This document shows, piece by piece, positions 37,827-50,326 of a stretch of DNA of 64,000 bases. The translations under genes and the position numbers were made by a program. The notes under the pieces are model-generated. The model saw only the letters and a list, made by a program, of their open reading frames with translations, had not been told where the DNA came from and did not search any database. The DNA is from an uncultured delta proteobacterium. GTDB lineage: Bacteria; Desulfobacterota; Binatia; Binatales; Binataceae. The stretch covers positions 9,650 through 73,649 of the forward strand of contig CAVQVD010000003.1 of the NCBI GenBank assembly GCA_963717045.1. Direction: 5' to 3'. The first letter of the stretch is position 1, and each line of letters begins with the position of its first letter.

Positions 37827-39422
37827 CTAATGAGCGGCGGAGGGGCCACTAGCACGCCGCGCTTTGCGCAACACCAGGAAGCCGGGGACCATCAGTGCCA
37901 TCACCACCGCCAGGATCCGATAGATGTCGTTGAAGGAGAGGATCGCGGCTTGCGCCTGGATAGCGTTGTAGAGCATTCCGAACGACTGATGCTGACCGCT
38001 TATCATTTGCGGCAGGTACTGAAAGGACGGCGCCCCCGGCATGCGCGGCGCGCTCTCACTGAGTTTCCAGGCGTCGAAGATCGAAAGATGATCGGCCAGA
38101 CGCGACTGATGAACCTGCTCGTGGTCAACCAGCATCGTGGTCATGTAGGCGATTCCGATCGCGGCGCCGGTATTACGCATCATATTGTAGAGACTAGCGG
38201 CGTATCCGATCTTTTCGCGCGCCACGACGGAGAGCGAGGTCGCCGAGAGCGTCGGAAAGATCATTCCCATCCCCAGGCCCATCGCGACGCTCGGGAGGAC
38301 CACGACCCACAGGCTAACCTGGAGATTCCAGCCTGACATCGTCCAGAGGCCGATCGTCATCAGGACGAACCCCACTCCGACCAGCGCGCGAGTATCAACA
38401 CCCCGTCGCGCAATCTGCCCCACCACCACCATCGACAACATCGTCGCGAGGCCGCGCGGCGCCAGCACCAGCCCGGCCTTCCACGCCGTGTAGCCCATAA
38501 ACTCCTGCAGGAATATCGGCATCAGCAGGCCGGTCCCATAGAGCACCGAGCTCATCGCGACAATCAGCACCAGCCCGACGCTGAAAACCTTTATTTTGAG
38601 GATCCGCAGATCGAGGATCGGATCGGGGATGCGCAACTCGTTGACCGTGAGAACGATCAGCGCTGCCGCGCTCAGCAGGCTGGTCCATACCACCCAAGGT
38701 GCGGCGAACCAATCGGCGCGCTGGCCGCGATCGAGCACGATTTGCATCGCGCCCAATCCCACCACCAGGCAGGCAATGCCCACGTAGTCGACTTTGGCGC
38801 CGCGCGCGCGATGCTCGCGCAGAAAAACGGGATCGTGTACGAACGCCGAAACCATCAGGAAGGCGATAATCCCGATCGGCACGTTGATATAGAAGTTCCA
38901 GCGCCAGTTCCAGTTGTCGGTGATCCAGCCGCCCAAGGTCGGGCCCATGATCGGTGCGACCATCAGGCCCACGCCCCACGTCGCCATCGCGAGCTGCTGC
39001 TCGGCCGGCGGAAACGTTTCCATGAGGATGGCCTGCGACGACGGCACCATCGCGGCCCCCGCCGCACCCTGGATCAGTCGAAAGACCACCATCTGGTCGA
39101 GCGATCCCGCCGCGCCGCAGAGCGCCGAGGCGACCACGAAGACCGATACCGAGATCATGAAGTAGCGTTTGCGGCCGAAGCGCGACGAGATCCATCCGGT
39201 CATCGGTATCATGATGCCGTTGGCGACCAGATAGCTGGTCAACACCCAGGCGATCTCATCGACGCTAGCCGAGAAGCTGCCCTGCATGTGCGGCAGGGAG
39301 ACGTTGACGATCGAGGTGTCGAGCACCTCGAGCGTGGTGCCGAGCATCACGGCCAGCGCCACCAGCCACTTGTGCGAAGGCGTTACGGGCTGCGCCGCGC
39401 TGATCGATGCTGCTGCTTCCAT
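37827..39422 (-). CDS. DHA2 (EmrB/QacA) MFS efflux permease, copy 2
   Basis: EVLDTSIVNVSLP, WVLTSY, RFGRKR, GPTLGGWITD, WRWNFYINVP. Confidence 0.94.
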   Translation of the reverse strand: MEAAASISAAQPVTPSHKWLVALAVMLGTTLEVLDTSIVNVSLPHMQGSFSASVDEIAWVLTSYLVANGIMIPMTGWISSRFGRKRYFMISVSVFVVASALCGAAGSLDQMVVFRLIQGAAGAAMVPSSQAILMETFPPAEQQLAMATWGVGLMVAPIMGPTLGGWITDNWNWRWNFYINVPIGIIAFLMVSAFVHDPVFLREHRARGAKVDYVGIACLVVGLGAMQIVLDRGQRADWFAAPWVVWTSLLSAAALIVLTVNELRIPDPILDLRILKIKVFSVGLVLIVAMSSVLYGTGLLMPIFLQEFMGYTAWKAGLVLAPRGLATMLSMVVVGQIARRGVDTRALVGVGFVLMTIGLWTMSGWNLQVSLWVVVLPSVAMGLGMGMIFPTLSATSLSVVAREKIGYAASLYNMMRNTGAAIGIAYMTTMLVDHEQVHQSRLADHLSIFDAWKLSESAPRMPGAPSFQYLPQMISGQHQSFGMLYNAIQAQAAILSFNDIYRILAVVMALMVPGFLVLRKARRASGPSAAH

Positions 39423-39432
39423 TCCGGAGGCG

Positions 39433-41043
39433 CTATTCAGCGTGCGCAGCTATGCTCCGAATCTGGGCACGGATGCGCGCGCGCCAGAGCCCGAAAAACA
39501 TCGGCACCATCGCGAGCATCAATACCGCCAGAATGCGGTACAGGTCGTCGAACGACAAAATTGCGGCTTGCGACGTCACCATTCCGTACATTCTGCCGAG
39601 GCCCTGTTTCTGGCCCGTCACCAACTGCCCCATGAAATGAAACGGAGGACTGCCCGGCATAAGCAAGCCGCGCTGGCTCAGGCGCCAAGCGTCGAACACC
39701 GACAGATGTTCGACCAACCTCGACTGATGCACCTGCTCATAGTTTACCAGCATGTTGGTGAGATACGAGATACCCATCGCGGCTCCGGTGTTGCGCATCA
39801 GATTGAACAGGCTGGCCGCATCGCCCATCCGCTCGCGCGGCACGCCCGCAAAGCCTGCTGCCGCAAGAACCGGGAACAGCATCCCGAGGCCACCGCCGAG
39901 CACTACGTTGTCGAGAGCGATCACCTGCGTGCTGACATCGAGGCTCCACTGCGCCATCCACCACAGCCCCAGCGACGCGAGCAGAAAGCCCAGCCCGATC
40001 ATCGGACGCGTATCGACCCGCAGCCGTGCCAATTGCCCCACCGCGAACATCGATAACATCGCAGCCACCGCTCGCGGGACCATCAGCAATCCAGCCCGCC
40101 ACGCCGTGTAGCCCATCAGTTCCTGCAGAAAAATCGGCGTAAGCAACCCGGTGCCCCACAGGGTCGCACTCATCACCACCATCAGGAGAACCGTCAGCGA
40201 GAAGACCCGGTCCTTGAGGATCCGCAGATCGATGATCGGCTGCGGGAAGCGCAGTTCGTTGAACACCAGGGTCAGCAGCGCGAGCGCCGAGCACGCGGTC
40301 GCCATAACCACCCAGTTCGAGGCGAACCAGTCGGCGCGCTGGCCGCGATCAAGCACGATTTGCGCGAGTCCCAGGCCCACCACCAGGCACGCGATGCCGG
40401 TGTAGTCGACGCGCCCGCCGCTCGATCGGCGCTGGCGCAGGTAAGGCGGATCGTGCACGAACGCATACACCATCAGCAGCGCAATAATCCCGATGGGTAT
40501 GTTGATGTAGAAGTTCCAGCGCCAGTTCCAGTTGTCGGTGATCCATCCGCCCAGCGTCGGTCCGAGAATGGGCGCAATCATCAGGCCCACGCCCCACGTC
40601 GCCATCGCCATCTGCTGTTCTTCGGGCGCAAAGCTCTCCATCAAAATGGCTTGCGAGGACGGGATCATGGCCGCGCCCGCCGCGCCTTGCGCGAGGCGGA
40701 ACAGTACCATCTGCCCGAGCGAACCCGCCGCGCCGCAGGCCGCTGAGGCGGCCACGAAGGTCGCCACCGAGGTCATGAAATAGCGCTTGCGGCCGAAGCG
40801 CGAGGAAATCCATCCGGTCATCGGAATCATGATGCCGTTGGCGACCAGGTAGCTGGTAACCACCCAGGCGATTTCGTCGACGCTGGCCGAGAAGCTGCCC
40901 TGCATGTGTGGCAGGGAAACGTTGACGATCGAGGTGTCGAGCACCTCGACCGCGGTACCCAGCATCACTGCGAGCGCGATTAGCCACTTGTGCGCGGCGG
41001 CAGGACGCTCGTCAGCGGCGGGAAGCGGAGTTACGCTTGCCAC
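39433..41043 (-). CDS. DHA2 (EmrB/QacA) MFS efflux permease, copy 1
   Basis: Same motifs as the adjacent copy, with long near-identical stretches. GTG start. Confidence 0.94.
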   Translation of the reverse strand: MASVTPLPAADERPAAAHKWLIALAVMLGTAVEVLDTSIVNVSLPHMQGSFSASVDEIAWVVTSYLVANGIMIPMTGWISSRFGRKRYFMTSVATFVAASAACGAAGSLGQMVLFRLAQGAAGAAMIPSSQAILMESFAPEEQQMAMATWGVGLMIAPILGPTLGGWITDNWNWRWNFYINIPIGIIALLMVYAFVHDPPYLRQRRSSGGRVDYTGIACLVVGLGLAQIVLDRGQRADWFASNWVVMATACSALALLTLVFNELRFPQPIIDLRILKDRVFSLTVLLMVVMSATLWGTGLLTPIFLQELMGYTAWRAGLLMVPRAVAAMLSMFAVGQLARLRVDTRPMIGLGFLLASLGLWWMAQWSLDVSTQVIALDNVVLGGGLGMLFPVLAAAGFAGVPRERMGDAASLFNLMRNTGAAMGISYLTNMLVNYEQVHQSRLVEHLSVFDAWRLSQRGLLMPGSPPFHFMGQLVTGQKQGLGRMYGMVTSQAAILSFDDLYRILAVLMLAMVPMFFGLWRARIRAQIRSIAAHAE

Positions 41044-41300
41044 GCAACCCTACCCGGCCGCGAGCCACTTCACGATGGCCGCGTCATACGCAAGCGAGAT
41101 CGCGCCGCTGCTCGTCTCCCCCATTGACGGTCCACCCTCCCCTAGAGGGGCCACAACTATGCTCCAGCGCTCGCCGCTTGAAAAGGCGGCGGAGCGGATC
41201 GCGCACTTTGCATAATCTCGCATGCAAAGCCGCACCGGCTGTGAAGTGATGTGGCTCCGCGATGCTGACAATCGTTCGCGCACCGCATACCCTTTTTATT

Positions 41301-42881
41301 ATGCGTCTGGCCGCGATCGACGTCGGTTCGAATTCGGTGCACATGGTCATTGCGGACGTTCGGCGCGACGGGCATTTCGAGGTCATCGATCGCGTCAAGG
41401 AGATGGTGCGGCTGGGACGGAACATGTTCACCAGTGGCAAGCTCGCGCGCGAGCCGATGGACCTGGCAGTGCGCGCGCTCAAAAATTTCGCCCGCCTGGC
41501 CAAGGTCCGCCGAGTCGATCGAATTCGCGCAGTCGCTACCAGCGCCGTGCGCGAGGCGCAAAATCGCGAAGCCTTCATCGCACGCATCCGGCGCGAGACC
41601 GGCCTCAAAGTCGAAATCATTTCGGGCGCCGAAGAAGCGCAGTTTATTTTCAACGCCGCCCGCCACGCACTCGGACTCGAGGGTGGCCCCTACCTGCTGA
41701 TAGACATCGGCGGCGGAAGCGTCGAGCTGGTGCTGGTGCGCGACGGCGAGGCGCTATGGATGGCGAGTCTGCCGCTGGGCGTCGCGCGGCTCACCGAGCG
41801 CTTCCTCACTTCGGATCCGCCCGATCCGGCCGCCGTGCGCAGGCTCGAAGAACATCTGCAGCGCAAGCTCGACGCGCTGATGCGCAAGGCACGCCGCGCC
41901 GGCGTAGTGCGTGCGATCGGCACCTCGGGAACTATCAATGCTCTGGTCGCGATGGCGCGGGTGGCGCGCGACGGCGAGCAGGATCGGCTTCACGGCCTGA
42001 ACATCCCGGCGACCGACGTCACCTGGCTACGCAACCGCCTCCTCAAACTCTCCGCCGATGAGCGCGCCGAACTGCCCGGCGCGGATCCCAAGCGCGCCGA
42101 CCTGATGCCAGCCGCAGTCGTCCTGACAGACTTTATCCTGGAGCATGCGGGCGCCCCGGAGCTGGTCGCCTGCACCTGGGCGCTACGCGAGGGCATCCTG
42201 CTGAGCATGGTCAACGGGAGCGCGGGGAGCGCACGAGGGCGCGGCGCGATCGAGGCCCGTCGGCGCTCGGTCAGCGCACTGGCGCGGCGCTTCGGTGCGC
42301 TCAACGGACATGGCCCGCAGGTAGCGCGCCTGGCGCTCAAAATTTTCGACGCCGCGGCACCGGCGCTCAAAGCCGGACCGCAAGCGCGCGAGCTGCTCGA
42401 GCATGCCGCTCTGCTGCACGACATCGGCCGTGTCATCGACCACGATCGCCACAACCGTCATACCTACTATTTGGTCAAGAACGCCGAGTTGCTGGGTTTC
42501 GACCCGCTCGAGATCGAGATCATCGCGCAGGCGGCGCGCGGCCATCGCAAGCCCTCGGCCCGGCTCGACTCGCCGGAGTTTCGTGCGCTGAGTCCGGCAA
42601 AACGCCATTTGGTTCGTTCGATCGCGGCGATCTTGCGGCTCGCCGATGCGCTGGACCGCAGTCACTTCAGTGTGGTTAAAGATATACGTATCAGACGTTC
42701 TCCAGATCGTTTCACCATCACAGTCGATGCTGCCGGTGGACAGGCAGACCTTGAGTTATGGACTTGCGAGAGAAGATCGGACTTGCTGTCGAGGCTGCTG
42801 AGCCGTCAAGTAACGGTCAGGCGCCGGGCCACGCGGCCGACAGTCAGGCCGGGGCGGGCGCTGGCTCGGCTCGGACGTTAA
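41301..42881 (+). CDS. ppx: Exopolyphosphatase Ppx/GppA with C-terminal HD domain
   Basis: AIDVGSNS, ATSAVREA, ISGAEEA, DIGGGS, GTSGT, ALREG, LLHDIG, LRLADALD. Confidence 0.93.
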   Translation: MRLAAIDVGSNSVHMVIADVRRDGHFEVIDRVKEMVRLGRNMFTSGKLAREPMDLAVRALKNFARLAKVRRVDRIRAVATSAVREAQNREAFIARIRRETGLKVEIISGAEEAQFIFNAARHALGLEGGPYLLIDIGGGSVELVLVRDGEALWMASLPLGVARLTERFLTSDPPDPAAVRRLEEHLQRKLDALMRKARRAGVVRAIGTSGTINALVAMARVARDGEQDRLHGLNIPATDVTWLRNRLLKLSADERAELPGADPKRADLMPAAVVLTDFILEHAGAPELVACTWALREGILLSMVNGSAGSARGRGAIEARRRSVSALARRFGALNGHGPQVARLALKIFDAAAPALKAGPQARELLEHAALLHDIGRVIDHDRHNRHTYYLVKNAELLGFDPLEIEIIAQAARGHRKPSARLDSPEFRALSPAKRHLVRSIAAILRLADALDRSHFSVVKDIRIRRSPDRFTITVDAAGGQADLELWTCERRSDLLSRLLSRQVTVRRRATRPTVRPGRALARLGR

Positions 42882-43591
42882 AGGGCCATCGGCGCACCCT
42901 GCTAAGTTCGCCCCATCCGTATCCTGGCCGGCTGATAGCGGTCGAGGGGGTAGACGGTTCGGGCAAGTCCACGCAGGTGAAACTTCTGGAGCGCTGGCTG
43001 CGCGCGCGCGGCTACCCGGTGCACTTCACCGAGTGGAACTCTTCGCGCCTGGTGCGCAACTCGATGCGCCGCGGCAAACGGCGCAACCTGCTCACGCCGA
43101 GTACCTTCAGCCTGCTGCACGCGGTGGACTTTGCCGACCGGTTCATCTACCAGATTCTGCCGCCGCTGCGCGCCGGAATGATCGTGCTGGCTGATCGCTA
43201 CGTATACACCGCCTTCGCGCGCGATGTCGCTCGCGGCGTGGATCCTGACTGGGTGCGCGGAGTCTACCGCTTTGCGCCACGACCAGACCTCACATTTTTC
43301 TTTCGCGTCCCCATCGACGTCTCGCTCGAGCGTCTGCTGGCCGGCCGCGCCAAGCTAAAATATTACGAGGCCGGGATGGACCTGGGATTATCGACCGACC
43401 TCGCTGAGAGTTTCCGTCTTTTCCAGGGCCGCGTGCTGGAAATCTACGATCAGCTATCCCAGGAGTTCGGTCTGCGTGTCATCGACGCCAGCCATGACAT
43501 CGCCGGCCAGCAGAAAGTCGTGCGCCGGATGACCGGAGAAGTTCTGCGCGAATACGACCGTCAGCGCGCCAACAACCATCATGCCAACTGA
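42758..43591 (+). CDS. Thymidylate-kinase-fold P-loop protein 1 (intact GKST)
   Basis: IAVEGVDGSGKST and LADRY. The canonical Tmk REP motif is replaced by TEWNSS. The start overlaps ppx by 124 bp and is uncertain. Confidence 0.85.
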   Translation: MDLREKIGLAVEAAEPSSNGQAPGHAADSQAGAGAGSARTLKGHRRTLLSSPHPYPGRLIAVEGVDGSGKSTQVKLLERWLRARGYPVHFTEWNSSRLVRNSMRRGKRRNLLTPSTFSLLHAVDFADRFIYQILPPLRAGMIVLADRYVYTAFARDVARGVDPDWVRGVYRFAPRPDLTFFFRVPIDVSLERLLAGRAKLKYYEAGMDLGLSTDLAESFRLFQGRVLEIYDQLSQEFGLRVIDASHDIAGQQKVVRRMTGEVLREYDRQRANNHHAN

Positions 43592-44360
43592 GCCAGCACA
43601 CGCTAAGCGCTGGCACGGCCACGGCCTGCCCTACCTCGAAGAGAAGCCGCTGCCCGGCCATCTAATCGTGATCGAGGGGACGGACGGAGTGGGCCGCTCC
43701 ACCCAAATCGAACTGCTGCGCGGGTGGCTCGAGTTAGAAGGCTATGCGGTGAGCAACACCGGATGGACCCGCTCGCCGTTGCTCTCGGAAACCATCGCGG
43801 AGGCGAAGGCCGGTCACCAGCTCACCCCGATAACCTTCAGTTTGCTCTACGCGGCCGATTTTGCCGACCGGCTCGAACACGAAATTATCCCCGCGCTGCA
43901 AGCGGGCTTCGTGGTCATCGCGGACCGTTACATGTACACCGCGTTCGCGCGCAACGCCGTGATGGGCGCCGACCCAGAGTGGACTAACGAGGTGTTCGGG
44001 ATGGCGCTGGTGCCAGATTTGGTGTTGTACCTGGAAATCGATGTCGACACGCTGGTGCCGCGCGTAGTCCGCGGCAAAGGCATGGACTATTGGGAGTCGG
44101 GCCTGCATCTCGCGCTCTCCAGCGACATTTTCGACTCTTTCCAGAACTACCAGCGGCGCATCATCGCCGAATACAATCGCCTCGCTCACGAGTTCGGCTT
44201 CATAACCATTGACGCTCGCCAGTCGATCAACAAAATCCAGACCGAGCTGCGCGCTCATGTTGCCGAATATCTGCGGCGCTCGCAGCTTGGCTTCCAGGCC
44301 TCGGCAGACGACTCGCCCTCCCCATCTCCGCCGCCGTCTCCCCAAGCGCGCAAAAGTTAA
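43581..44360 (+). CDS. Thymidylate-kinase-fold P-loop protein 2 (Walker A Lys replaced by Arg, GRST)
   Basis: VIEGTDGVGRST and IADRY. Paralog of the upstream gene (shared TFSLL.A.DFADR and ADRY.YTAFAR). 11-bp overlap. Confidence 0.85.
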   Translation: MPTEPAHAKRWHGHGLPYLEEKPLPGHLIVIEGTDGVGRSTQIELLRGWLELEGYAVSNTGWTRSPLLSETIAEAKAGHQLTPITFSLLYAADFADRLEHEIIPALQAGFVVIADRYMYTAFARNAVMGADPEWTNEVFGMALVPDLVLYLEIDVDTLVPRVVRGKGMDYWESGLHLALSSDIFDSFQNYQRRIIAEYNRLAHEFGFITIDARQSINKIQTELRAHVAEYLRRSQLGFQASADDSPSPSPPPSPQARKS

Positions 44361-44406
44361 ACGCTGAGGTGTTCCAAGCGAAAAGCATAAAGCGAGGTCT
44401 TAGGTG

Positions 44407-45402
44407 ATGACCGCTGTCAGTCATTCAGCGCGAGCGCGCACCGCCGCGCCATCGTCGAGCGACCCCGCCATCAAAGCGGCCTCTGCGGCGATTCATGCCC
44501 AGTTGCGCGTGATGACCGCCGAGCACGCTAGCGCCGTGTCCGGTGACGTCGAAGCGATCCATCGGCTGCGCGTGTCAACGCGGCGCTTGCGCGCGGGCTT
44601 ACGAATGCTCAGGGAGGTCGAAGCGGGCGGCGACGACGCGGAAAACGTCACGGATGAACTGGGATGGCTCTGCCGCGCGATCGGTGCGGTGCGCGATCTC
44701 GATGTGCTAACGCAACTGCTCGAGGAACGGGCGGCGCACCTGGAAGCCGATTTCATCAGCGCGCTCACCTCGCTCTCGAACACCATTCGCCAGCAGCGCG
44801 CGGTCGAGCAGGAACGCCTTGTGGCGGCGCTCGAATCCGAGCAGTACCGCTGTCTCGTCCAACGCCTGGGCGCGGTCGCGCCCGAGCCCTCTGCCAACAG
44901 CGCTACGTTGGGGGCGGTGGCAGCGCGGATGGTGCGTCCGCAATTGCGCACGATGCTGCGTGCGGGCGCCGGACTCGACGAAGCCGCGCCGCCCGAGACT
45001 CTGCATCGTCTGCGTGTGCGCGTGAAAAAGGTGCGTTACACGCTCGAGGCGATGCGCGCGGTCGGCGGCAAACCGGCGTGCAGGATGCTGCGCCGTCTCG
45101 AGCGCGTGCAGGATAGCATCGGCATGTACCACGATTCAGCGACTGCGGCAGCGTGGCTGCGAGCATGGGCTGCCGAATCGCACGACACGCCGGCCGCGAA
45201 CATGATAGCAGTGGGCGCGCTGATCCATTCCTTCGAGCGCCGCACCCGGCGCTTGCGCGCGCGCAGCCTCAAGGCCTGGCGTCGCGCGCAGATGGAGCAA
45301 TTCGCCCGGGCCGTGCTGGACGAACTCAAGGATGCGGCCGCAAAGACGGGGCGCGCCGCCAAGCCACCGCTCGCCTTGGTCCCGATGGTCCGCGCGTCAT
45401 GA
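44407..45402 (+). CDS. CHAD-domain (polyphosphate-binding) protein
   Basis: IHRLRVSTRRLRA, IGAVRDLDV, LHRLRVRVKKVRY.LE, QDSIGMYHD. Confidence 0.92.
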   Translation: MTAVSHSARARTAAPSSSDPAIKAASAAIHAQLRVMTAEHASAVSGDVEAIHRLRVSTRRLRAGLRMLREVEAGGDDAENVTDELGWLCRAIGAVRDLDVLTQLLEERAAHLEADFISALTSLSNTIRQQRAVEQERLVAALESEQYRCLVQRLGAVAPEPSANSATLGAVAARMVRPQLRTMLRAGAGLDEAAPPETLHRLRVRVKKVRYTLEAMRAVGGKPACRMLRRLERVQDSIGMYHDSATAAAWLRAWAAESHDTPAANMIAVGALIHSFERRTRRLRARSLKAWRRAQMEQFARAVLDELKDAAAKTGRAAKPPLALVPMVRAS

Positions 45403-45902
45403 CGCTTTACATTGTGCGCCACGGAACGGCCGAGAACGAACCTCCGCCCGGCGGCGACGACGGCGCGCGCCGGCTGACCGCCCGCGGGCGCGAGAAAGTG
45501 CGCGAGGCAGCGGCTGGAATGCGAGCGTTGGGCCTCAAATTCGACGCCATTCTCGCGAGCCCACTGCCGCGCGCTGCCGAGACCGCAGAGCTGGTCGCCG
45601 CCACTTACGCCGGCGGTCCGACGCCCGAAGTCCTCGCCGCACTGTCGACCGGTGTGACGCCCGCCGAGACCATCGCGGCGCTCAAGCCTTACGAGCGCCA
45701 CGAGCATCTGATGATCGTCGGGCACGAGCCGGGGCTGAGCGGGATAGCCTCGTTGTTGCTGACCGGCTCGGCCAACAGCGTCAGCCTCGAGTTCAAGAAG
45801 TCGGGGATGATCGCGCTCGAATTGCACGACGGGCTTGCGCGCGGCGGCGCGCAACTGCTCTGGATGCTTACGCCACGTCACTTGCGCCGGCTGCGCAAGT
45901 AG
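45399..45902 (+). CDS. sixA: Phosphohistidine phosphatase SixA
   Basis: YIVRHG, RRLT..G, SPLPRA.ETA, VGHEP. ATGA-coupled to the CHAD gene. Confidence 0.92.
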   Translation: MTLYIVRHGTAENEPPPGGDDGARRLTARGREKVREAAAGMRALGLKFDAILASPLPRAAETAELVAATYAGGPTPEVLAALSTGVTPAETIAALKPYERHEHLMIVGHEPGLSGIASLLLTGSANSVSLEFKKSGMIALELHDGLARGGAQLLWMLTPRHLRRLRK

Positions 45903-45927
45903 CGGTTCCTTCGCGGGGCCGAAGCAA

Positions 45928-48768
45928 CTAACTATCTGAGTTGATATAGAATGTTTGAGGCGCGGGGCGATAAACGCGCGCGAGCCAGAGCGGCCGCCGA
46001 AGTCCGCCAGGACCCGGCGCCGCGCGTGTCATCTCGAGCCATCGCCGATACACCTCGTGCGACTTGCGGGTGTCGACAAAGATATCGCCGTAGCGATCCC
46101 GCGGCTCCGCTTTGGTTACCGTCACCTTTTGATGCCAGCAGTGCTGGCCGCTTATCGGGTCAGGTTGCACCGGAAAGATCAGGTTCTGATGTACTCCGGC
46201 GTCCTGCCACCAGATGCGGCTCGAATCCGGATCGGCGCTCTTAAATGGCAGCACGCCATGCACCTGGCGCATCATCCATGTGCCTTCTTCCTTATGGCTC
46301 AGCTCGACCACTCCGCTCGACCATCGCTCTCCGCCGCCGTCCTCGTTGAGGCGCCAGCGGCCGAGATGATGCGAGCAGGCGATCACACCTGGCCGAATCG
46401 ATTCGGTAACCCATACCTTGTCGATGAAATAGCCAATCTCGGTCGCGACCTTCAGCAGTCCGCCCGTGTCGACGCCGAAGCGTCGCGCATCCTGGGGATT
46501 CAGCCACAGAGGGTTGCGATTGGATATTTCGTATAGCCACTTGGCATTGCCGGAGCGCGTATGTACCAGCGTCGGGAGGCGGAAGGTCGGCAGCAGCAGC
46601 ATCTCACCACGTTCGCGATCGATATTGCTCCAGTGGACGTGGCTTCTGATGTAGGTTGGAACTGAGTACTCGGGCCATTTCCAGTCCTTGAGCGTCTTCG
46701 AATAGAACTCGAGCTTGCGCGAGGGCGTGGGAAAACCAGCGCAAACGCGGCCGTCGATTTCGACTCCGAGCGCAGCCCCGCCGCGCGTGACCACCTGGCT
46801 TGTCGGATCGATCGTGGCGTCCTTCAGATCGGCCGCCGGGATCGGTTTCTCATGAGCACGGTAGGAACCTTCGTCGATAAGGAAGGCACCGTACTTGCGC
46901 ATGTAGGCAAGCGGTGCGAGCCCCTCCCTCGCTGCCGCTGCAGGGAGGCCCGGAACACTGTTCTCGAAAATCCAGCGATAAAAATCCTCGACCGTTAGTT
47001 TTTCGCCCGCGCGATACGGCGACTCGAAGTACTTGCGGATGCCGAGCGCGCCGTCGGGATCGATTCTCCATGACAGCTCGATCCAGAACTCGTCCTCTTC
47101 CCAGACCTCGCCCAGACCGGCCTCGCGATGGGCTTCGTAAGTGAAGTTGAAGCGCTTGCCGGCGCGCTCCAGCGCGACGCGCGCGACCGGCTGCCGAAAG
47201 CCGATCCAGCGTGCGGCGTGAGTCTCCTGGCTCAGCAGGTCATGGCGCTCCGGCCCATGACCCATCGGCAATACGTAATCGGCGAATTGAGCGGTCTCGC
47301 TCCAGATCGGTGTCAGGCAGGCGTGACGCTCGATCTTGCTTTCGTCGGTTAGTGCCTCGATCCAGGTCATCCCGTCGGGATTGGTCCAGACGGGATTGTA
47401 GACGCGGGTGAAGTAGGCGCTTAATTTGCCGCGGCCCTCTTTCAGAAAATGCGGCAACAGGAAACTCATCTCGAAAAACGCGAGCGGGAACTCGCGCGGC
47501 CACATCAGCTCGTTCCACATTTTCGACGGTGGCGGCATCAGTGGCGGCGCCGGCACGAACTTATTGGCGGAGTTGGGAGCGGTACCGCCGGGCGCGTCGA
47601 CTGCGCCCATCAGCACGACCAGAAATTCAAGCGCGCGCGCCACTTGCCATCCGCCCAGGTTGCCCGCCGCCGCATTGCGCCAGACATGGGTCGCCAGCGC
47701 CGGCCCGGCTCGTCCTATCTCGCGCGCGACCTCGACGATCACCGTGGCCGATGCGCCCGACTCGCGCTCGGCAAACTCGGGCGTGTATTCCGCATAAACC
47801 TCGCCGAGGACTTCGACGAACGTGTCGAAGGTCTGCAGACGCTCCGGATGCTCCTCGCGCAGAAACTCCTCCCAGTTGACCCAGCGGCGCAAGAACTCGC
47901 GGTCGTACAACCGCTCGTGCAGGATCACGTGGCACATCGCCAGCAGCACCGCCGCCTCGCTGCCCGGCCAGGTCGAGAGCCACCAGTCGGCCTTGGTCGC
48001 GGTATTCGAGAGCCGCGTGTCGATTACGCAGACCCTGGCCCCGCGCTGCTTGGCCTCGATAATTCGTTGCGCGTGCGGATTGAAGTAATGGCCGGCCTCC
48101 AGGTGTGAGCTCAGCAGCAGGATGAATCTGGCGTTGGCGTGGTCGGGCGACGGCCGATCGGCGCCGTGCCAGAACGCGTAGCCGGTGCGTGCGCCAGCCG
48201 AGCATACGTTGGTGTGGCTATTGTGTCCGTCGATTCCCCAGGCGTGCAGAATGCGTTGATTGTAAATCAGCTCATGGCCGGGGCGACCGACGTGGTAGAG
48301 AATTTCGTTGCGACGCCCTTCGACCAGTGCGCGACGGATTCGTCCGGCGAGATCGTCGAGCGCCTCGTCCCAGGTCACGCGTTCCCATTTGCCCTCGCCA
48401 CGTCCTCCCGCACGGCGCATCGGATAGAGGATGCGCTCGGGATCGGTGACCTGGTTGATTGTAGCGGGCCCTTTGGCGCAGTTGCGGCCGCGGCTTCCCG
48501 GATGCATCGGGTTGCCTTCGAATTTGCGAATCGTGAAGTCGCGCTTGTCGACGTATCCTAGCAAGCCGCATCCGGCCTCGCAGTTGAAGCAGACGGTCGG
48601 GACCAGCGTGTAGTGCTTCTCGACCTTGCGCGGCCATGCGGCTGGGTCGTACTCGGCCCAGTCTTCCCATCGCTCGGCCGGCGGAAAAGCGCCGAGTCCG
48701 CCGACCGGCGCTTCGAGTTCGATCGCCGCCGGATTGAGCGGCCGCAAGTCGTCGTCTGCCGATGCCAT
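45928..48768 (-). CDS. Molybdo-bisPGD oxidoreductase catalytic subunit (Psr/Phs/Ttr-like DMSO reductase family), no Tat signal
   Basis: FS0 motif CFNCEAGC...NCAKG, ERILYPMRR, HTNVCS (likely Cys Mo ligand), SETAQFADYVLP, TPSRKLEF. Confidence 0.9.
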   Translation of the reverse strand: MASADDDLRPLNPAAIELEAPVGGLGAFPPAERWEDWAEYDPAAWPRKVEKHYTLVPTVCFNCEAGCGLLGYVDKRDFTIRKFEGNPMHPGSRGRNCAKGPATINQVTDPERILYPMRRAGGRGEGKWERVTWDEALDDLAGRIRRALVEGRRNEILYHVGRPGHELIYNQRILHAWGIDGHNSHTNVCSAGARTGYAFWHGADRPSPDHANARFILLLSSHLEAGHYFNPHAQRIIEAKQRGARVCVIDTRLSNTATKADWWLSTWPGSEAAVLLAMCHVILHERLYDREFLRRWVNWEEFLREEHPERLQTFDTFVEVLGEVYAEYTPEFAERESGASATVIVEVAREIGRAGPALATHVWRNAAAGNLGGWQVARALEFLVVLMGAVDAPGGTAPNSANKFVPAPPLMPPPSKMWNELMWPREFPLAFFEMSFLLPHFLKEGRGKLSAYFTRVYNPVWTNPDGMTWIEALTDESKIERHACLTPIWSETAQFADYVLPMGHGPERHDLLSQETHAARWIGFRQPVARVALERAGKRFNFTYEAHREAGLGEVWEEDEFWIELSWRIDPDGALGIRKYFESPYRAGEKLTVEDFYRWIFENSVPGLPAAAAREGLAPLAYMRKYGAFLIDEGSYRAHEKPIPAADLKDATIDPTSQVVTRGGAALGVEIDGRVCAGFPTPSRKLEFYSKTLKDWKWPEYSVPTYIRSHVHWSNIDRERGEMLLLPTFRLPTLVHTRSGNAKWLYEISNRNPLWLNPQDARRFGVDTGGLLKVATEIGYFIDKVWVTESIRPGVIACSHHLGRWRLNEDGGGERWSSGVVELSHKEEGTWMMRQVHGVLPFKSADPDSSRIWWQDAGVHQNLIFPVQPDPISGQHCWHQKVTVTKAEPRDRYGDIFVDTRKSHEVYRRWLEMTRAAPGPGGLRRPLWLARVYRPAPQTFYINSDS

Positions 48769-48796
48769 ATCCGATTCGTCTCGCCGCTTCGTGGAG

Positions 48797-50326
48797 CTAA
48801 CTGAGGGGCACCGCCTGGCCGGCCTCTATCCAGATATTTTCAAAGTTCCACAATCCGGCGAGCGCGAGCAGCGCGGCGCCCGCCGCCGGGGCGTCGCCGC
48901 CCATGCGCAAAGCCGCACCGAGCAGAATCAGCGGAACGATCGTCCCAATCATAACCGTGCCGATCCAGAAGCCAACGCGGAGTTCACCGCGCAAGATAAG
49001 ATCGGCCGCGCGTCGGAAATCCTCACTCATCGCGGGCAGCGTCAGCTCGACAAGTGTCATCACCAGACCGACCGTCAGCGCGGCGAACAGGATTTGCGCG
49101 ATGGCCGGGAACGTCGCGGGGCCGAGGCCAAGCGCCAGCGCGACGACGATCAGCATCGCCGCACCACCTATCAGCGCTTGCACGAACAGATGCCAGAAAA
49201 AAACCGGACTCTGCCACAGATCGCGTCCCCTGGCCTGCGCAAAAAGAAAAGCGGAGTAGCAAGCGGAGGCGACCGCGAAAACCGCCGTCGCGGCGGCCAG
49301 CGCCGCAGGAACCGAACCGATGAAGAAGCCGCACGCGAGCCACGCAGCCGCGAGCGCGCCGTAAATCATCAAGATGTACGTGCCCCATACCAGCCACGAG
49401 CGAAAGTTGGGCTTGGTGATCAAATAGTAGAAACGCCACGGTTGCTTGAGGTCTGCGATCAGCAGCACCACCGTTATGCCGAGAAAGAACAGCGCGAGAA
49501 CCGGGCTCGCGATGTAAACCAGGGTGTCGTCGCCGCCGCTCGGAGTAGCGAGCAGCAGCGCCGCGACCATCAGCACGCCCGCCGCTATCGATTTGGTCCA
49601 CAAATAGGCGGCCGGAATTGCACCCCACGGAGCCGCGTGCGAAACGTCGTAGACGATCCGCGCCGAGCCGGGCGCCGCGGCGCCAGGCTCGGCGGCGGTG
49701 TCAGGGCGCTCATCGTCTAACGGATTGTCGTCGGCCCACATCGAGCCATGCTCCGGCCGCATCATCGTCGGTTGCAGCAGGTCGCCTTCGATACCGACAT
49801 AGAAGAGCTTGGGCTGTGTGCCTTTGTGCGGCTTGCGGCTCGTCACCTTTTGCGTTGCGATGATGCGACTGACGCGGCTTTGCGGATCGTCAAGGTCGCC
49901 GGTCATGATTGCCTGCGTGGGACATACGACCACGCAGGCCGGCTCGAGATTGACCTCGACGCGATGCGCGCAGAAGTTGCACTTGGCGGCGGTGCTGGTC
50001 GCGGGATCGATATAGAGCGCGTCGTAGGGACAGGCCTGCATGCACGATTTACATCCGATGCAGCGGCTGCTGTCGAAATCGACAATGCCATTGTCGCGCT
50101 TGAACAACGCGCTGGTGGGGCAAATCTCGACGCACGGCGCCTGGTCGCAATGATTGCAGCGCATCACGCCGAAGTGGCGGCTGCTGTCGGGGAAGGCGCC
50201 CTTTTCGATGTACTTGACCCAGGTGCGGAAGACTCCGACCGGGACCTTGTGCTCATCCTTGCAGGCAACGGTGCATGCATGGCATCCGATGCATCGGTCC
50301 TGGTCGATAACGAAGCCGTAACGCAC
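48797..50326 (-). CDS. Fusion of a four-cluster 4Fe-4S subunit (DmsB/PsrB) and an NrfD/PsrC membrane anchor
   Basis: CIGCHAC..AC, CNHC..PC..CP, CIGCKSC..ACP, CNFC..PAC..CP, then a multi-TM NrfD region (ADLKQPWRF, SWLVWG). Confidence 0.92.
   Translation of the reverse strand: MRYGFVIDQDRCIGCHACTVACKDEHKVPVGVFRTWVKYIEKGAFPDSSRHFGVMRCNHCDQAPCVEICPTSALFKRDNGIVDFDSSRCIGCKSCMQACPYDALYIDPATSTAAKCNFCAHRVEVNLEPACVVVCPTQAIMTGDLDDPQSRVSRIIATQKVTSRKPHKGTQPKLFYVGIEGDLLQPTMMRPEHGSMWADDNPLDDERPDTAAEPGAAAPGSARIVYDVSHAAPWGAIPAAYLWTKSIAAGVLMVAALLLATPSGGDDTLVYIASPVLALFFLGITVVLLIADLKQPWRFYYLITKPNFRSWLVWGTYILMIYGALAAAWLACGFFIGSVPAALAAATAVFAVASACYSAFLFAQARGRDLWQSPVFFWHLFVQALIGGAAMLIVVALALGLGPATFPAIAQILFAALTVGLVMTLVELTLPAMSEDFRRAADLILRGELRVGFWIGTVMIGTIVPLILLGAALRMGGDAPAAGAALLALAGLWNFENIWIEAGQAVPLS

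What the first reader, a model, noticed from the sequence alone, without database searches (positions are those of the whole stretch)
41301..45902. Polyphosphate operon with a tandem thymidylate-kinase-fold pair where a polyP kinase would be expected (ppx-tmkA-tmkB-CHAD-sixA)
Seen: five co-oriented genes, mostly overlapping (124-bp, 11-bp and ATGA junctions, one ~46-bp gap). Both TMK-fold paralogs keep the DRY motif but lack the canonical Tmk REP motif (TEWNSS, TGWTRS). One has Walker A GKST, the other GRST. No ppk1 or ppk2 is in the operon. Established: Ppx degrades polyP, CHAD domains bind polyP, ppx/CHAD/sixA often cluster with ppk genes, and PPK2 is a P-loop kinase structurally related to thymidylate kinase. 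Inference: the pair is not dTMP kinase but a possibly heteromeric polyP kinase or polyP:nucleotide phosphotransferase, i.e. a candidate additional PPK class.
Basis: partly seen in the sequence, partly recalled or inferred. Interest (0 to 1): 0.85.

Follow-up and report, generated by a model that had tools for sequence, protein, structure and literature searches.

The report
Bacterial PPK3 polyphosphate kinase operon

Summary
It was published as the PPK3 family (Hofmann et al., J Biol Chem 2026, PMC12995831; bioRxiv 2024). That paper describes the same five genes in Sulfolobus acidocaldarius and predicts bacterial operons of this kind.

- **Membership:** both proteins best match PDB 2plr/5h70, the S. 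tokodaii cPPK3 homolog (199 and 150 bits). Canonical TMKs score 62 bits or less.
- **Tree:** tmkA falls in the cPPK3 clade (support 100). tmkB falls among rPPK3-type partners.
- **Other kinases:** the genome has a separate canonical tmk, and also PPK1 and PPK2 genes.
- **Linkage:** in 80 related loci the A-then-B pair is adjacent in 77, and ppx lies within 6 kb in 62.
- **No anti-correlation:** 41 of 50 PPK3-bearing genomes also have PPK1 and/or PPK2.
- **Nuance:** the B subunit keeps the DRY arginine but has Walker-A Lys→Arg in 85 of 88 cases.

Verdict: a new member of a known kind, of low to moderate interest.

The parts
41301..42881 (+). ppx: exopolyphosphatase (Ppx/GppA N-terminal domains, domain III and HD). 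An alternative upstream ATG lies at 41262.
   Evidence: Pfam PF02541 1.5e-66, PF21447 1.2e-26, PF01966 4.5e-09. TIGR03706 scores 291 bits, just under its 307-bit cut-off.
42758..43591 (+). tmkA: cPPK3-type catalytic subunit. It has Walker A GSGKST, TEWNSS, ADRY and a basic patch RRGKRR. A ~50-residue N-terminal extension overlaps the end of ppx by 124 nt.
   Evidence: - Best PDB match is 2plr/5h70 (STK_15430), E 9.6e-58, 199 bits; the best canonical TMK scores 62 bits.
- It sits in the A clade with the Sulfolobaceae-type cPPK3 rows, SH-aLRT 100.
- All 89 of 89 A-type proteins keep the Walker Lys and the DRX Arg.
- Net charge of the domain is +13.
43581..44360 (+). tmkB: rPPK3-type partner subunit. 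It has Walker A GVGRST (Lys→Arg) and TGWTRS, keeps ADRY, has lost the basic patch (AEAKAGH), and carries an acidic/Pro-rich C-terminal tail.
   Evidence: - 42% identical to tmkA.
- Best PDB match is 2plr, 150 bits.
- It lies in the B grade of the tree.
- 85 of 88 B-type proteins have Arg at the Walker Lys position.
- Net charge is -9.
44404..45402 (+). CHAD-domain protein (polyP-granule-associated family). The start is GTG 44404 or ATG 44407.
   Evidence: Pfam PF05235 4.9e-48, model positions 1-228 of 228. Start codons read.
45399..45902 (+). sixA: SixA-type histidine phosphatase. Its start overlaps the CHAD stop (ATGA).
   Evidence: TIGR00249 84.7 bits, above the 74.5 cut-off. PF00300 3.7e-10. 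Junction read.

Best explanation
The operon is a bacterial polyphosphate module built around a PPK3-type kinase. The closest named homologs come from Candidatus Binataceae.

tmkA is the catalytic subunit (cPPK3). It is a TMK-fold P-loop kinase that has lost the dTMP site and gained a basic cleft for polyP. It transfers phosphate reversibly between ATP/ADP and polyP.

tmkB is the partner subunit (rPPK3). It is a paralog with a degenerate P-loop (Lys→Arg) and no basic cleft. It probably does not catalyse transfer itself, but binds tmkA and activates it by oligomerisation.

By analogy with SaPPK3, the enzyme should favour polyP + ADP → ATP and should make polyP only at a high ATP/ADP ratio. Ppx (hydrolysis), the CHAD protein (granule binding) and SixA are co-encoded and presumably act on the same polyP pool.

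**Shown here:** homology, clade membership, conserved pairing and linkage, and the motif states.

**Inferred from the archaeal ortholog:** the activity, its direction, the subunit roles and the stoichiometry.
For: 1. **Closest solved structure.** Both proteins best match PDB 2plr/5h70 (199 and 150 bits). Canonical TMKs score 62 and 48.5 bits or less. The paper names that chain, STK_15430, as the cPPK3 homolog.
2. **Same locus as the crystallised protein.** Locus L094 encodes that chain (467 bits, full length). Its gene order is sixA-ppx-A-B, as in six further loci, L091-L097. This matches saci_2017-2020.
3. **Tree of 91 rows (quick IQ-TREE).** The 13 canonical TMKs split from the 78 A/B rows with SH-aLRT 100. 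The 39 A rows form one clade with support 100. That clade includes tmkA and the seven Sulfolobaceae-type A rows.
4. **Conserved pairing.** The pair is conserved as A then B. It is adjacent in 77 of 80 loci from many phyla and present in 22 of 24 same-family genomes.
5. **Linkage within ±6 kb.** ppx is found in 62/80 loci, sixA in 43/80, CHAD in 41/80, any of the three in 64/80, and all three in 31/80.
6. **Separate canonical tmk.** The genome has one at C15, 162.7 bits. Nine other PPK3-bearing genomes checked also have one.
7. **Subunit asymmetry as the paper describes it.**
   - All A-type proteins keep the Walker Lys and DRX Arg (89/89).
   - Positions R100, R104, R108, R109 and K201 are basic in at least 81% of A-type and at most 20% of B-type proteins.
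   - Median net charge is +5 for A and -3 for B.
8. **Natural fusions.** Single-chain A-B fusions exist in 7 protein clusters: P0064, P0069, P0071, P0073, P0086, P0117 and P0123. P0123's cluster has 5 members, including an Alicyclobacillus isolate record.
9. **Complex prediction: weak support.**
   - The score is 0.52 and the best of 3 controls is 0.03.
   - The mark was reached by 58 of 80 solved complexes and 2 of 110 mismatched pairs. At 0.60 or under it was reached by only 7 of those 80 and by both mismatches.
   - The runs agree in at least 98% of contacts, and the partner's pLDDT is at least 82.
   - My own alignments were used. TMK homodimers are solved, so the pass may come from likeness to those.
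10. **Weak hint of expression.**
    - Contigs from soil libraries labelled RNA, from three studies (X15, X17, X19), lie on the operon at 95% identity or more.
    - One bridges tmkB-CHAD (44206-44819) and one bridges CHAD-sixA (44852-45864).
    - DNA carry-over is not excluded, and a contig across two genes does not show a single transcript.
Against: - No biochemistry exists for any bacterial member that I could find. The function is transferred from an archaeal ortholog only 42-44% identical to tmkA and 23-30% identical to tmkB.
- The paper explains rPPK3 inactivity by loss of the DRX arginine. tmkB keeps that arginine, as do 81 of 88 B-type proteins. The 'dead regulatory subunit' role is therefore less secure in bacteria.
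- The genome also encodes PPK1 and PPK2, so PPK3 is not needed to explain polyP synthesis here, and its specific role is open. In this assembly ppk1 carries a 1-nt deletion relative to two congeners.
- tmkB scores above NCBIfam's dTMP-kinase equivalog cut-off (88.1 against 83.25).
- The B rows do not form a clade in the rooted tree. They form a grade around A, and the Sulfolobaceae B rows sit on a long branch. Orthology of tmkB with Saci_2020 therefore rests mainly on conserved position.
Confidence: 0.85

Rival explanations
1. Both subunits are catalytically active. tmkB keeps the DRY arginine, the lid arginine and most active-site positions, and uses Arg in place of the P-loop Lys. The bacterial heteromer would then have two kinds of active site, for instance different nucleotide acceptors such as AMP and ADP, rather than one catalytic and one regulatory subunit.
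For: - 81 of 88 B-type proteins keep the DRX Arg. Only the seven Sulfolobaceae-type ones have Gly there.
- D115, R116, Y117, R124 and R161 of tmkB lie in invariant or nearly invariant columns among the 67 B-type rows.
- The Arg at the Walker position is itself conserved in 85/88 rather than drifting.
Against: - Replacing the Walker-A Lys with Arg is a classic inactivating change in P-loop enzymes (established knowledge, not tested here).
- B-type proteins lack the basic residues that are conserved in A-type proteins and proposed to bind polyP (paper).
- B-type proteins have 13 invariant columns against 36 in A-type, over the same 67 loci.
- Saci_2020 alone was inactive.
Confidence: 0.1
2. The two genes are nucleotide kinases, dTMP kinase paralogs or kinases for another (d)NMP, that merely sit next to polyP genes.
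For: - Pfam PF02223 matches both proteins.
- tmkB passes the TIGR00041 dTMP-kinase cut-off (88.1 against 83.25), and tmkA nearly does (80.0).
- Public records name the close homologs 'dTMP kinase' or 'thymidylate kinase'.
Against: - The genome has a far better canonical tmk (162.7 bits against about 80).
- The canonical motif at the TEWNSS/TGWTRS position is absent.
- The pair sits in a clade split from canonical TMKs with support 100.
- The orthologous Saci_2019 and Saci_2020 showed no dTMP kinase activity, whereas Saci_0893 did (paper section read).
- Linkage to ppx, CHAD or sixA is seen in 64 of 80 loci.
Confidence: 0.04

Closest known systems
SaPPK3 of Sulfolobus acidocaldarius (Saci_2019 cPPK3 + Saci_2020 rPPK3); Hofmann et al., J Biol Chem 2026, PMC12995831
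   Same: - It is a pair of adjacent TMK-fold paralogs directly downstream of ppx, in one operon with sixA and a CHAD gene.
- The first subunit has an intact P-loop, the DRX Arg and basic residues.
- The second has lost the basic residues.
- A canonical dTMP kinase lies elsewhere in the genome.
   Different: - Gene order here is ppx-c-r-CHAD-sixA; there it is sixA-ppx-c-r-CHAD.
- tmkB keeps the DRX Arg and has Walker Lys→Arg. The Sulfolobaceae-type partners have DRX Arg→Gly, with either Lys (3) or Arg (4) in the P-loop.
- The host is a mesophilic soil bacterium that also carries PPK1 and PPK2 genes.
- tmkA has a ~50-residue N-terminal extension.
STK_15430 of Sulfurisphaera tokodaii (PDB 2plr, 4nzy, 4rzx, 5h70), deposited as 'probable thymidylate kinase'
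   Same: It is the best structural relative of both window proteins. tmkA aligns over residues 57-263 at E 9.6e-58, sharing TEWNSS, LLTP.TFSL, DRY.YTA.ARD and the lid.
   Different: It was solved alone, so no heteromer structure exists. It is an archaeal thermophile protein.
Canonical dTMP kinase (TIGR00041; EC 2.7.4.9)
   Same: It shares the fold, the Pfam family, the P-loop, the DRY motif and the lid.
   Different: It lies in a separate clade (support 100). The dTMP-site motif is not kept. The genome has its own canonical copy.
Two-domain class II PPK2 (e.g. P. aeruginosa PA3455), as compared in the paper's discussion
   Same: It works alike: one inactive P-loop-kinase module supports oligomerisation of an active one, and polyP-driven nucleotide phosphorylation is favoured.
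   Different: It is a different family. Neither window protein matches Pfam PPK2 at E ≤ 0.01. It is a single fused chain rather than two genes, although fused A-B PPK3 forms do exist.

Membership tests
PPK3 (TMK-superfamily heteromeric polyP kinase) | Both proteins fall in the clade of TMK paralogs that holds Saci_2019/STK_15430, separate from canonical dTMP kinases. | tested here: met
   Tree of 91 rows: canonical versus A+B split has SH-aLRT 100, and the A clade (39 rows, including tmkA and the 2plr-encoding L094 ORF) has support 100.
PPK3 (TMK-superfamily heteromeric polyP kinase) | Two adjacent genes, cPPK3 followed by rPPK3. | tested here: met
   There is an 11-nt overlap in the window. 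A then B is adjacent in 77 of 80 related loci and in L091-L098.
PPK3 (TMK-superfamily heteromeric polyP kinase) | A neighbourhood of polyP genes (PPX, SixA, CHAD). | tested here: met
   All three are in the same operon. Across the related loci, ppx is present in 62/80, sixA in 43/80 and CHAD in 41/80.
PPK3 (TMK-superfamily heteromeric polyP kinase) | A canonical dTMP kinase is encoded elsewhere in the genome. | tested here: met
   G000:C15:296594-297175, PF02223 162.7 bits.
PPK3 (TMK-superfamily heteromeric polyP kinase) | cPPK3 has an intact P-loop Lys, the DRX Arg, and conserved basic cleft residues that rPPK3 lacks. | tested here: met
   GSGKST and ADRY in tmkA. 89/89 A-type proteins keep both. 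Five positions are basic in A-type only.
PPK3 (TMK-superfamily heteromeric polyP kinase) | rPPK3 has the DRX arginine replaced (the paper's stated reason for its inactivity). | tested here: not met
   tmkB has ADRY. Only 7 of 88 B-type proteins, all Sulfolobaceae-type, have Gly there. The Nitrososphaeraceae pairs, which the paper counts as PPK3, also keep the Arg (L098). I therefore read this as a lineage trait, not a family-defining one. The general B-type mark is Walker Lys→Arg (85/88).
PPK3 (TMK-superfamily heteromeric polyP kinase) | The subunits form a heteromer (α2β2 in SaPPK3). | tested here: inconclusive
   A 1:1 complex prediction gave weak support: 0.52 against a best control of 0.03. 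Natural A-B fusions point the same way. The stoichiometry was not tested.
PPK3 (TMK-superfamily heteromeric polyP kinase) | Reversible ATP:polyP phosphotransfer and no dTMP kinase activity. | not testable with these tools
   This needs enzyme assays.
Canonical dTMP kinase (TIGR00041) | The score reaches the equivalog cut-off, and the dTMP-site motif is present. | tested here: not met
   tmkA scores 80.0, below 83.25. tmkB scores 88.1, above it. Both lack the motif that the genome's canonical copy has at that position: TEWNSS and TGWTRS against THEPGG. Both lie outside the canonical clade.
PPK2 (PF03976) | A match to the PPK2 profile. | tested here: not met
   There is no PF03976 match at E ≤ 0.01 for either protein. 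The only trace is a 14.7-bit P-loop match of tmkA to TIGR03708.

The most novel reading that the evidence does not exclude
In bacteria and Nitrososphaeraceae the PPK3 partner subunit is not a dead scaffold. It keeps the DRY arginine and the lid arginine, and it carries a conserved Arg in place of the P-loop Lys. It may therefore still bind nucleotide and act as the ATP/ADP sensor, or as a second and different active site, that sets the direction of the enzyme. In hosts that also own PPK1 and PPK2, PPK3 would then be a regulated polyP-to-ATP valve rather than the cell's polyP synthase. The mechanism proposed from Sulfolobus (loss of the DRX Arg) would be a lineage-specific special case.
Probability: 0.2. 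Interest if true: 0.5.

Novelty: new member of a known kind. Interest (0 to 1): 0.25.

Why it matters
The practical points are these.

1. **Annotation.** Public records name close homologs of tmkA 'dTMP kinase' or 'thymidylate kinase'. tmkB even passes NCBIfam's dTMP-kinase cut-off. Polyphosphate kinase capacity is therefore under-called in soil bacteria.
2. **Distribution.** The paper's abstract and discussion speak of 'a few' scattered bacteria. One capped scan returned 80 paired loci whose record titles name Acidobacteriota, Nitrospirota, Verrucomicrobiota, Planctomycetota, Chloroflexota, Bacteroidota, Binatia and others. Closed supplements may already list these.
3. **Co-occurrence.** In these bacteria PPK3 mostly co-occurs with PPK1 and/or PPK2 (41 of 50 genomes). 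It is an added function, not a replacement.
4. **The rPPK3 signature.** The general sequence mark of the partner subunit is Walker-A Lys→Arg, not loss of the DRX Arg. This bears on how the regulatory subunit works.

Tried and rejected
- **Promoter and terminator scan, 40900-46100.** It found 1 promoter-like and 5 terminator-like sites. The shuffled means are 0.9 and 4.1, so this is no more than chance. None lies in the ppx upstream region. It says nothing about the transcription unit.
- **RNA contigs.** Parts of the operon without cover in the four RNA-labelled runs (for example 41171-41510 in all four) carry no meaning. Contigs cannot show the starts, ends, strand or level of an RNA.
  - In the same bacterial family PPK3 is present in 22/24, PPK1 in 23/24 and PPK2 in 19/24 genomes.
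  - Among the genomes of loci L011-L060 (50 of my 80, taken in rank order), PPK1 is present in 27/50, PPK2 in 37/50 and neither in 9/50.
  - These are mostly metagenome-assembled genomes of unstated completeness, so 'neither' is an upper bound.
- **B-type monophyly.** I expected tmkB and the Sulfolobaceae rPPK3 to form one clade. The rooted quick tree gives a B grade with A nested inside it, and warns that long branches meet. I did not run the AU test, so a single origin of B is neither shown nor excluded.
- **A later tmkA start that would avoid the 124-nt overlap.** No in-frame ATG/GTG/TTG exists between 42764 and the P-loop. The extension aligns from residue 1 only within the genus.
- **ppk1 in the own assembly.** It reads in two frames because of a 1-nt deletion relative to G001 and G006, in a short C run. 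One PPK2 copy on C8 is also split. I cannot tell assembly error from true pseudogene. The PPK2 on C7 is intact (285-aa frame, 250.7 bits).
- **Structure prediction and fold search.** Not run. The full-length sequence match to a solved structure made them unnecessary.
- **Literature.**
  - PMC12995831: I read the abstract and outline, sections 4, 7, 8 and 9, and passages by term.
  - Its supplements (Figs S15-S19, S24, Data S1) are closed. They may already show the Walker-A change, the bacterial taxa and the PPK1/PPK2 profile.
  - The bioRxiv version, 10.1101/2024.08.28.610084, was seen only in search listings.
  - 'No bacterial PPK3 biochemistry in print' rests on the listings of those two searches alone.
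  - 'PPK3' in biocatalysis papers of that listing was not opened. From recall, it is a PPK2-family enzyme of Ruegeria.

Full report
**1. Observation.**

The region holds five co-oriented ORFs on the + strand.
- Pfam assigns Ppx-GppA plus domain III/HD to 41301-42881. It assigns Thymidylate_kin to 42758-43591 and to 43581-44360, CHAD to 44404-45402, and His_Phos_1 to 45399-45902.
- NCBIfam adds SixA above its cut-off (84.7 against 74.5 bits). It puts tmkA just under the dTMP-kinase equivalog cut-off (80.0 against 83.25) and tmkB just over it (88.1).

- ppx and tmkA overlap by 124 nt. No in-frame ATG/GTG/TTG exists after 42764, so the overlap cannot be avoided with a standard start.
- tmkA and tmkB overlap by 11 nt.
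- A 43- or 46-nt gap precedes CHAD.
- CHAD and sixA overlap at ATGA.

The motifs are also as stated: GSGKST, TEWNSS and ADRY in tmkA; GVGRST, TGWTRS and ADRY in tmkB. The two proteins are 42% identical.

**2. What it is.**

A literature search found that this arrangement has been solved experimentally. Hofmann et al., J Biol Chem 2026 (PMC12995831; a bioRxiv version dates from 2024), report the following:
- In Sulfolobus acidocaldarius the two 'thymidylate kinases' next to ppx form a heteromeric, reversible polyphosphate kinase, SaPPK3.
- Saci_2019 is the catalytic subunit (cPPK3) and Saci_2020 is the regulatory subunit (rPPK3).
- Neither has dTMP kinase activity. A third gene, Saci_0893, is the real dTMP kinase.
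- The operon also holds sixA and a CHAD gene.
- Homologous pairs occur in bacteria, next to PPX, SixA and CHAD.

**3. Membership, tested here.**

- **Structure match.** Both window proteins have their best solved relative in PDB 2plr/5h70: tmkA E 9.6e-58 and 199 bits, tmkB 6.4e-43 and 150 bits. Canonical TMKs reach only 62 and 48.5 bits. The paper names that chain, STK_15430, as a cPPK3 homolog.
- **Archaeal loci.** I sampled 301 genomes of the phylum of a Nitrososphaeraceae locus. Of these, 23 had a match at E ≤ 1e-25, and I fetched eight loci. Seven read sixA-ppx-A-B. The A ORF of L094 is the 2plr chain itself (467 bits, residues 2-214 on 1-213).
- **Tree.** In a 91-row tree the 13 canonical TMKs, including this genome's own, split from the 78 A/B rows with SH-aLRT 100. 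All 39 A rows form a clade with support 100. That clade includes tmkA and the seven Sulfolobaceae-type A proteins.
- **Caveat on tmkB.** tmkB lies among the B rows. These form a grade rather than a clade, and the program warns of long-branch effects for the Sulfolobaceae B rows. Orthology of tmkB to Saci_2020 therefore rests mainly on its conserved position after A.

**4. Pairing and linkage.**

- A capped scan of one genome per species gave at least 600 pattern matches, of which 467 were tblastn relatives. The best 80 were kept.
- The record titles of those 80 name Binatia, Nitrospira, Acidobacteriota, Verrucomicrobiota, Planctomycetota, Chloroflexota, Bacteroidota, Dormiibacterota, Nitrososphaera, a Thermoplasmata archaeon and others.
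- I searched them with profiles built from the window's own proteins. A then B is adjacent in 77 of 80. L025 is cut by its contig end. L060 and L080 have B, a CHAD-ppx frame, then A.
- Within ±6 kb, ppx is found in 62, sixA in 43, CHAD in 41, any of the three in 64, and all three in 31. PPK2 is found in 7 and PPK1 in 2.
- Among relatives of the window's genome, 22 of 24 same-family genomes carry the tandem pair.

**5.

- The genome has a separate canonical tmk on contig C15 (162.7 bits against about 80 for the pair).
- Nine other PPK3 genomes checked also have one. In a tenth (G347) the best match scores only 73.5 bits.
- The pairs are linked to polyP genes (point 4).
- The expected anti-correlation with ppk1/ppk2 is not there.
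  - The own genome has PPK1 on C22, an intact PPK2 on C7, and PPK2 pieces on C8 and C10.
  - In the same family PPK1 is present in 23/24 and PPK2 in 19/24 genomes.
  - In the genomes of loci L011-L060, PPK1 is present in 27/50, PPK2 in 37/50 and neither in 9/50.
- The paper states that the majority of PPK3 holders encode neither. I report this as a difference of sample, not a contradiction.

**6. Subunit roles.**

- All 89 A-type proteins keep the Walker-A Lys and the DRX Arg.
- Of 88 B-type proteins, 85 have Arg at the Walker Lys position. The three that keep Lys are Sulfolobaceae-type.
- Only the seven Sulfolobaceae-type B proteins have lost the DRX Arg (to Gly); 81 keep it.
- The paper's stated cause of rPPK3 inactivity therefore applies to that lineage. 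The general mark of the partner subunit, tmkB included, is Lys→Arg in the P-loop.
- Five positions (R100, R104, R108, R109 and K201 of tmkA) are basic in at least 81% of A and at most 20% of B. Median net charge is +5 against -3, and +13 against -9 in the window. This fits the paper's basic polyP cleft in cPPK3 only.
- Over the same 67 loci, A has 36 invariant columns and B has 13.

**7. Do they bind?**

- A 1:1 complex prediction gave weak support.
  - The score is 0.52 and the best of 3 controls is 0.03.
  - The runs agree in at least 98% of contacts, and the partner's pLDDT is at least 82.
  - The mark was reached by 58 of 80 solved complexes and 2 of 110 mismatched pairs. At 0.60 or under it was reached by only 7 of those 80 and by both mismatches.
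- My own alignments were used, and solved TMK homodimers may lend likeness.
- Independent of that, seven protein clusters are single chains with an A-type half followed by a B-type half. One is seen in five members, including an Alicyclobacillus isolate record.

**8. Expression.**

- Soil libraries labelled RNA, from three studies, hold contigs at least 95% identical to parts of the operon. Two of them bridge tmkB-CHAD and CHAD-sixA.
- This is only a hint. DNA carry-over is possible, and contigs do not define transcripts.

**9. Verdict.**

- The finding is a bacterial member of the published PPK3 family, probably from Candidatus Binataceae to judge from the names of the closest public homologs.
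The claim of a new PPK class is not, because the class is in print.
- What may go beyond the paper's main text:
  - the breadth in bacterial phyla;
  - the co-occurrence with PPK1/PPK2;
  - the Walker-A signature of the partner subunit;
  - the fused forms.
- Each of these may already be in supplements I could not open.

Noticed in passing
Proteins P0064, P0069, P0071, P0073, P0086, P0117, P0123: Single-chain fusions of an A-type (cPPK3-like) half and a B-type (rPPK3-like) half, 407-469 aa long. P0064 and P0071 show GSGKS in the first half and GVGRS in the second. P0123's cluster has 5 members, including an Alicyclobacillus isolate record. The paper mentions only one possible fusion.
   Followed up: partly
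Proteins P0140 (696 aa) and P0154 (650 aa): Two TMK-like domains are followed by Ppx/GppA domain III plus an HD domain in one chain. The kinase pair is fused to the C-terminal part of an exopolyphosphatase.
   Followed up: partly
Proteins P0187, P0201, P0206, P0215: - PPK3-like domains with a Walker Lys and DR[WY] sit inside large multidomain proteins.
- P0187 reads SPX - kinase - DUF2252 and comes from a EukProt transcriptome of the protist Ancoracysta twista.
- P0201 and P0206 read MFS transporter - kinase - APH/DUF2252.
- P0215 reads inorganic pyrophosphatase (InPase) - kinase.
- SPX is the eukaryotic phosphate-sensing domain (recalled). A PPK3-like kinase under SPX control in eukaryotes would be worth its own study.
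   Followed up: partly
G000:C22:97486-98024 (locus L009, around position 1501): The genome's ppk1 reads in two frames because of a 1-nt deletion in a short C run, relative to congeners G001 and G006, whose frames are open for about 765 aa. It may be an assembly error or a real pseudogene. One PPK2 copy on C8 is split in the same way.
   Followed up: partly
window 42758-42881: tmkA's ~50-residue N-terminal extension overlaps the last 124 nt of ppx in another frame. The extension aligns from residue 1 only in same-genus genomes. In more distant relatives the match starts at residues 23-56.
   Followed up: partly
G347 (genome of L079): This Acidobacteriota genome has two separate PPK3-type pairs (C1:222302-223578 and C1:1764012-1765126). 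It has no PF02223 match above 74 bits, so a canonical tmk is not evident with this profile.
   Followed up: no
window 37827-41043 (- strand) and 45928-50326 (- strand): Two tandem paralogous ~530-aa membrane-protein genes lie upstream and diverge from ppx. By eye they look like MFS drug-exporter-type transporters. Downstream, a 946-aa and a 509-aa ORF converge on sixA. By eye these look like a molybdopterin oxidoreductase and an iron-sulfur/membrane subunit. None was scanned against any library.
   Followed up: no
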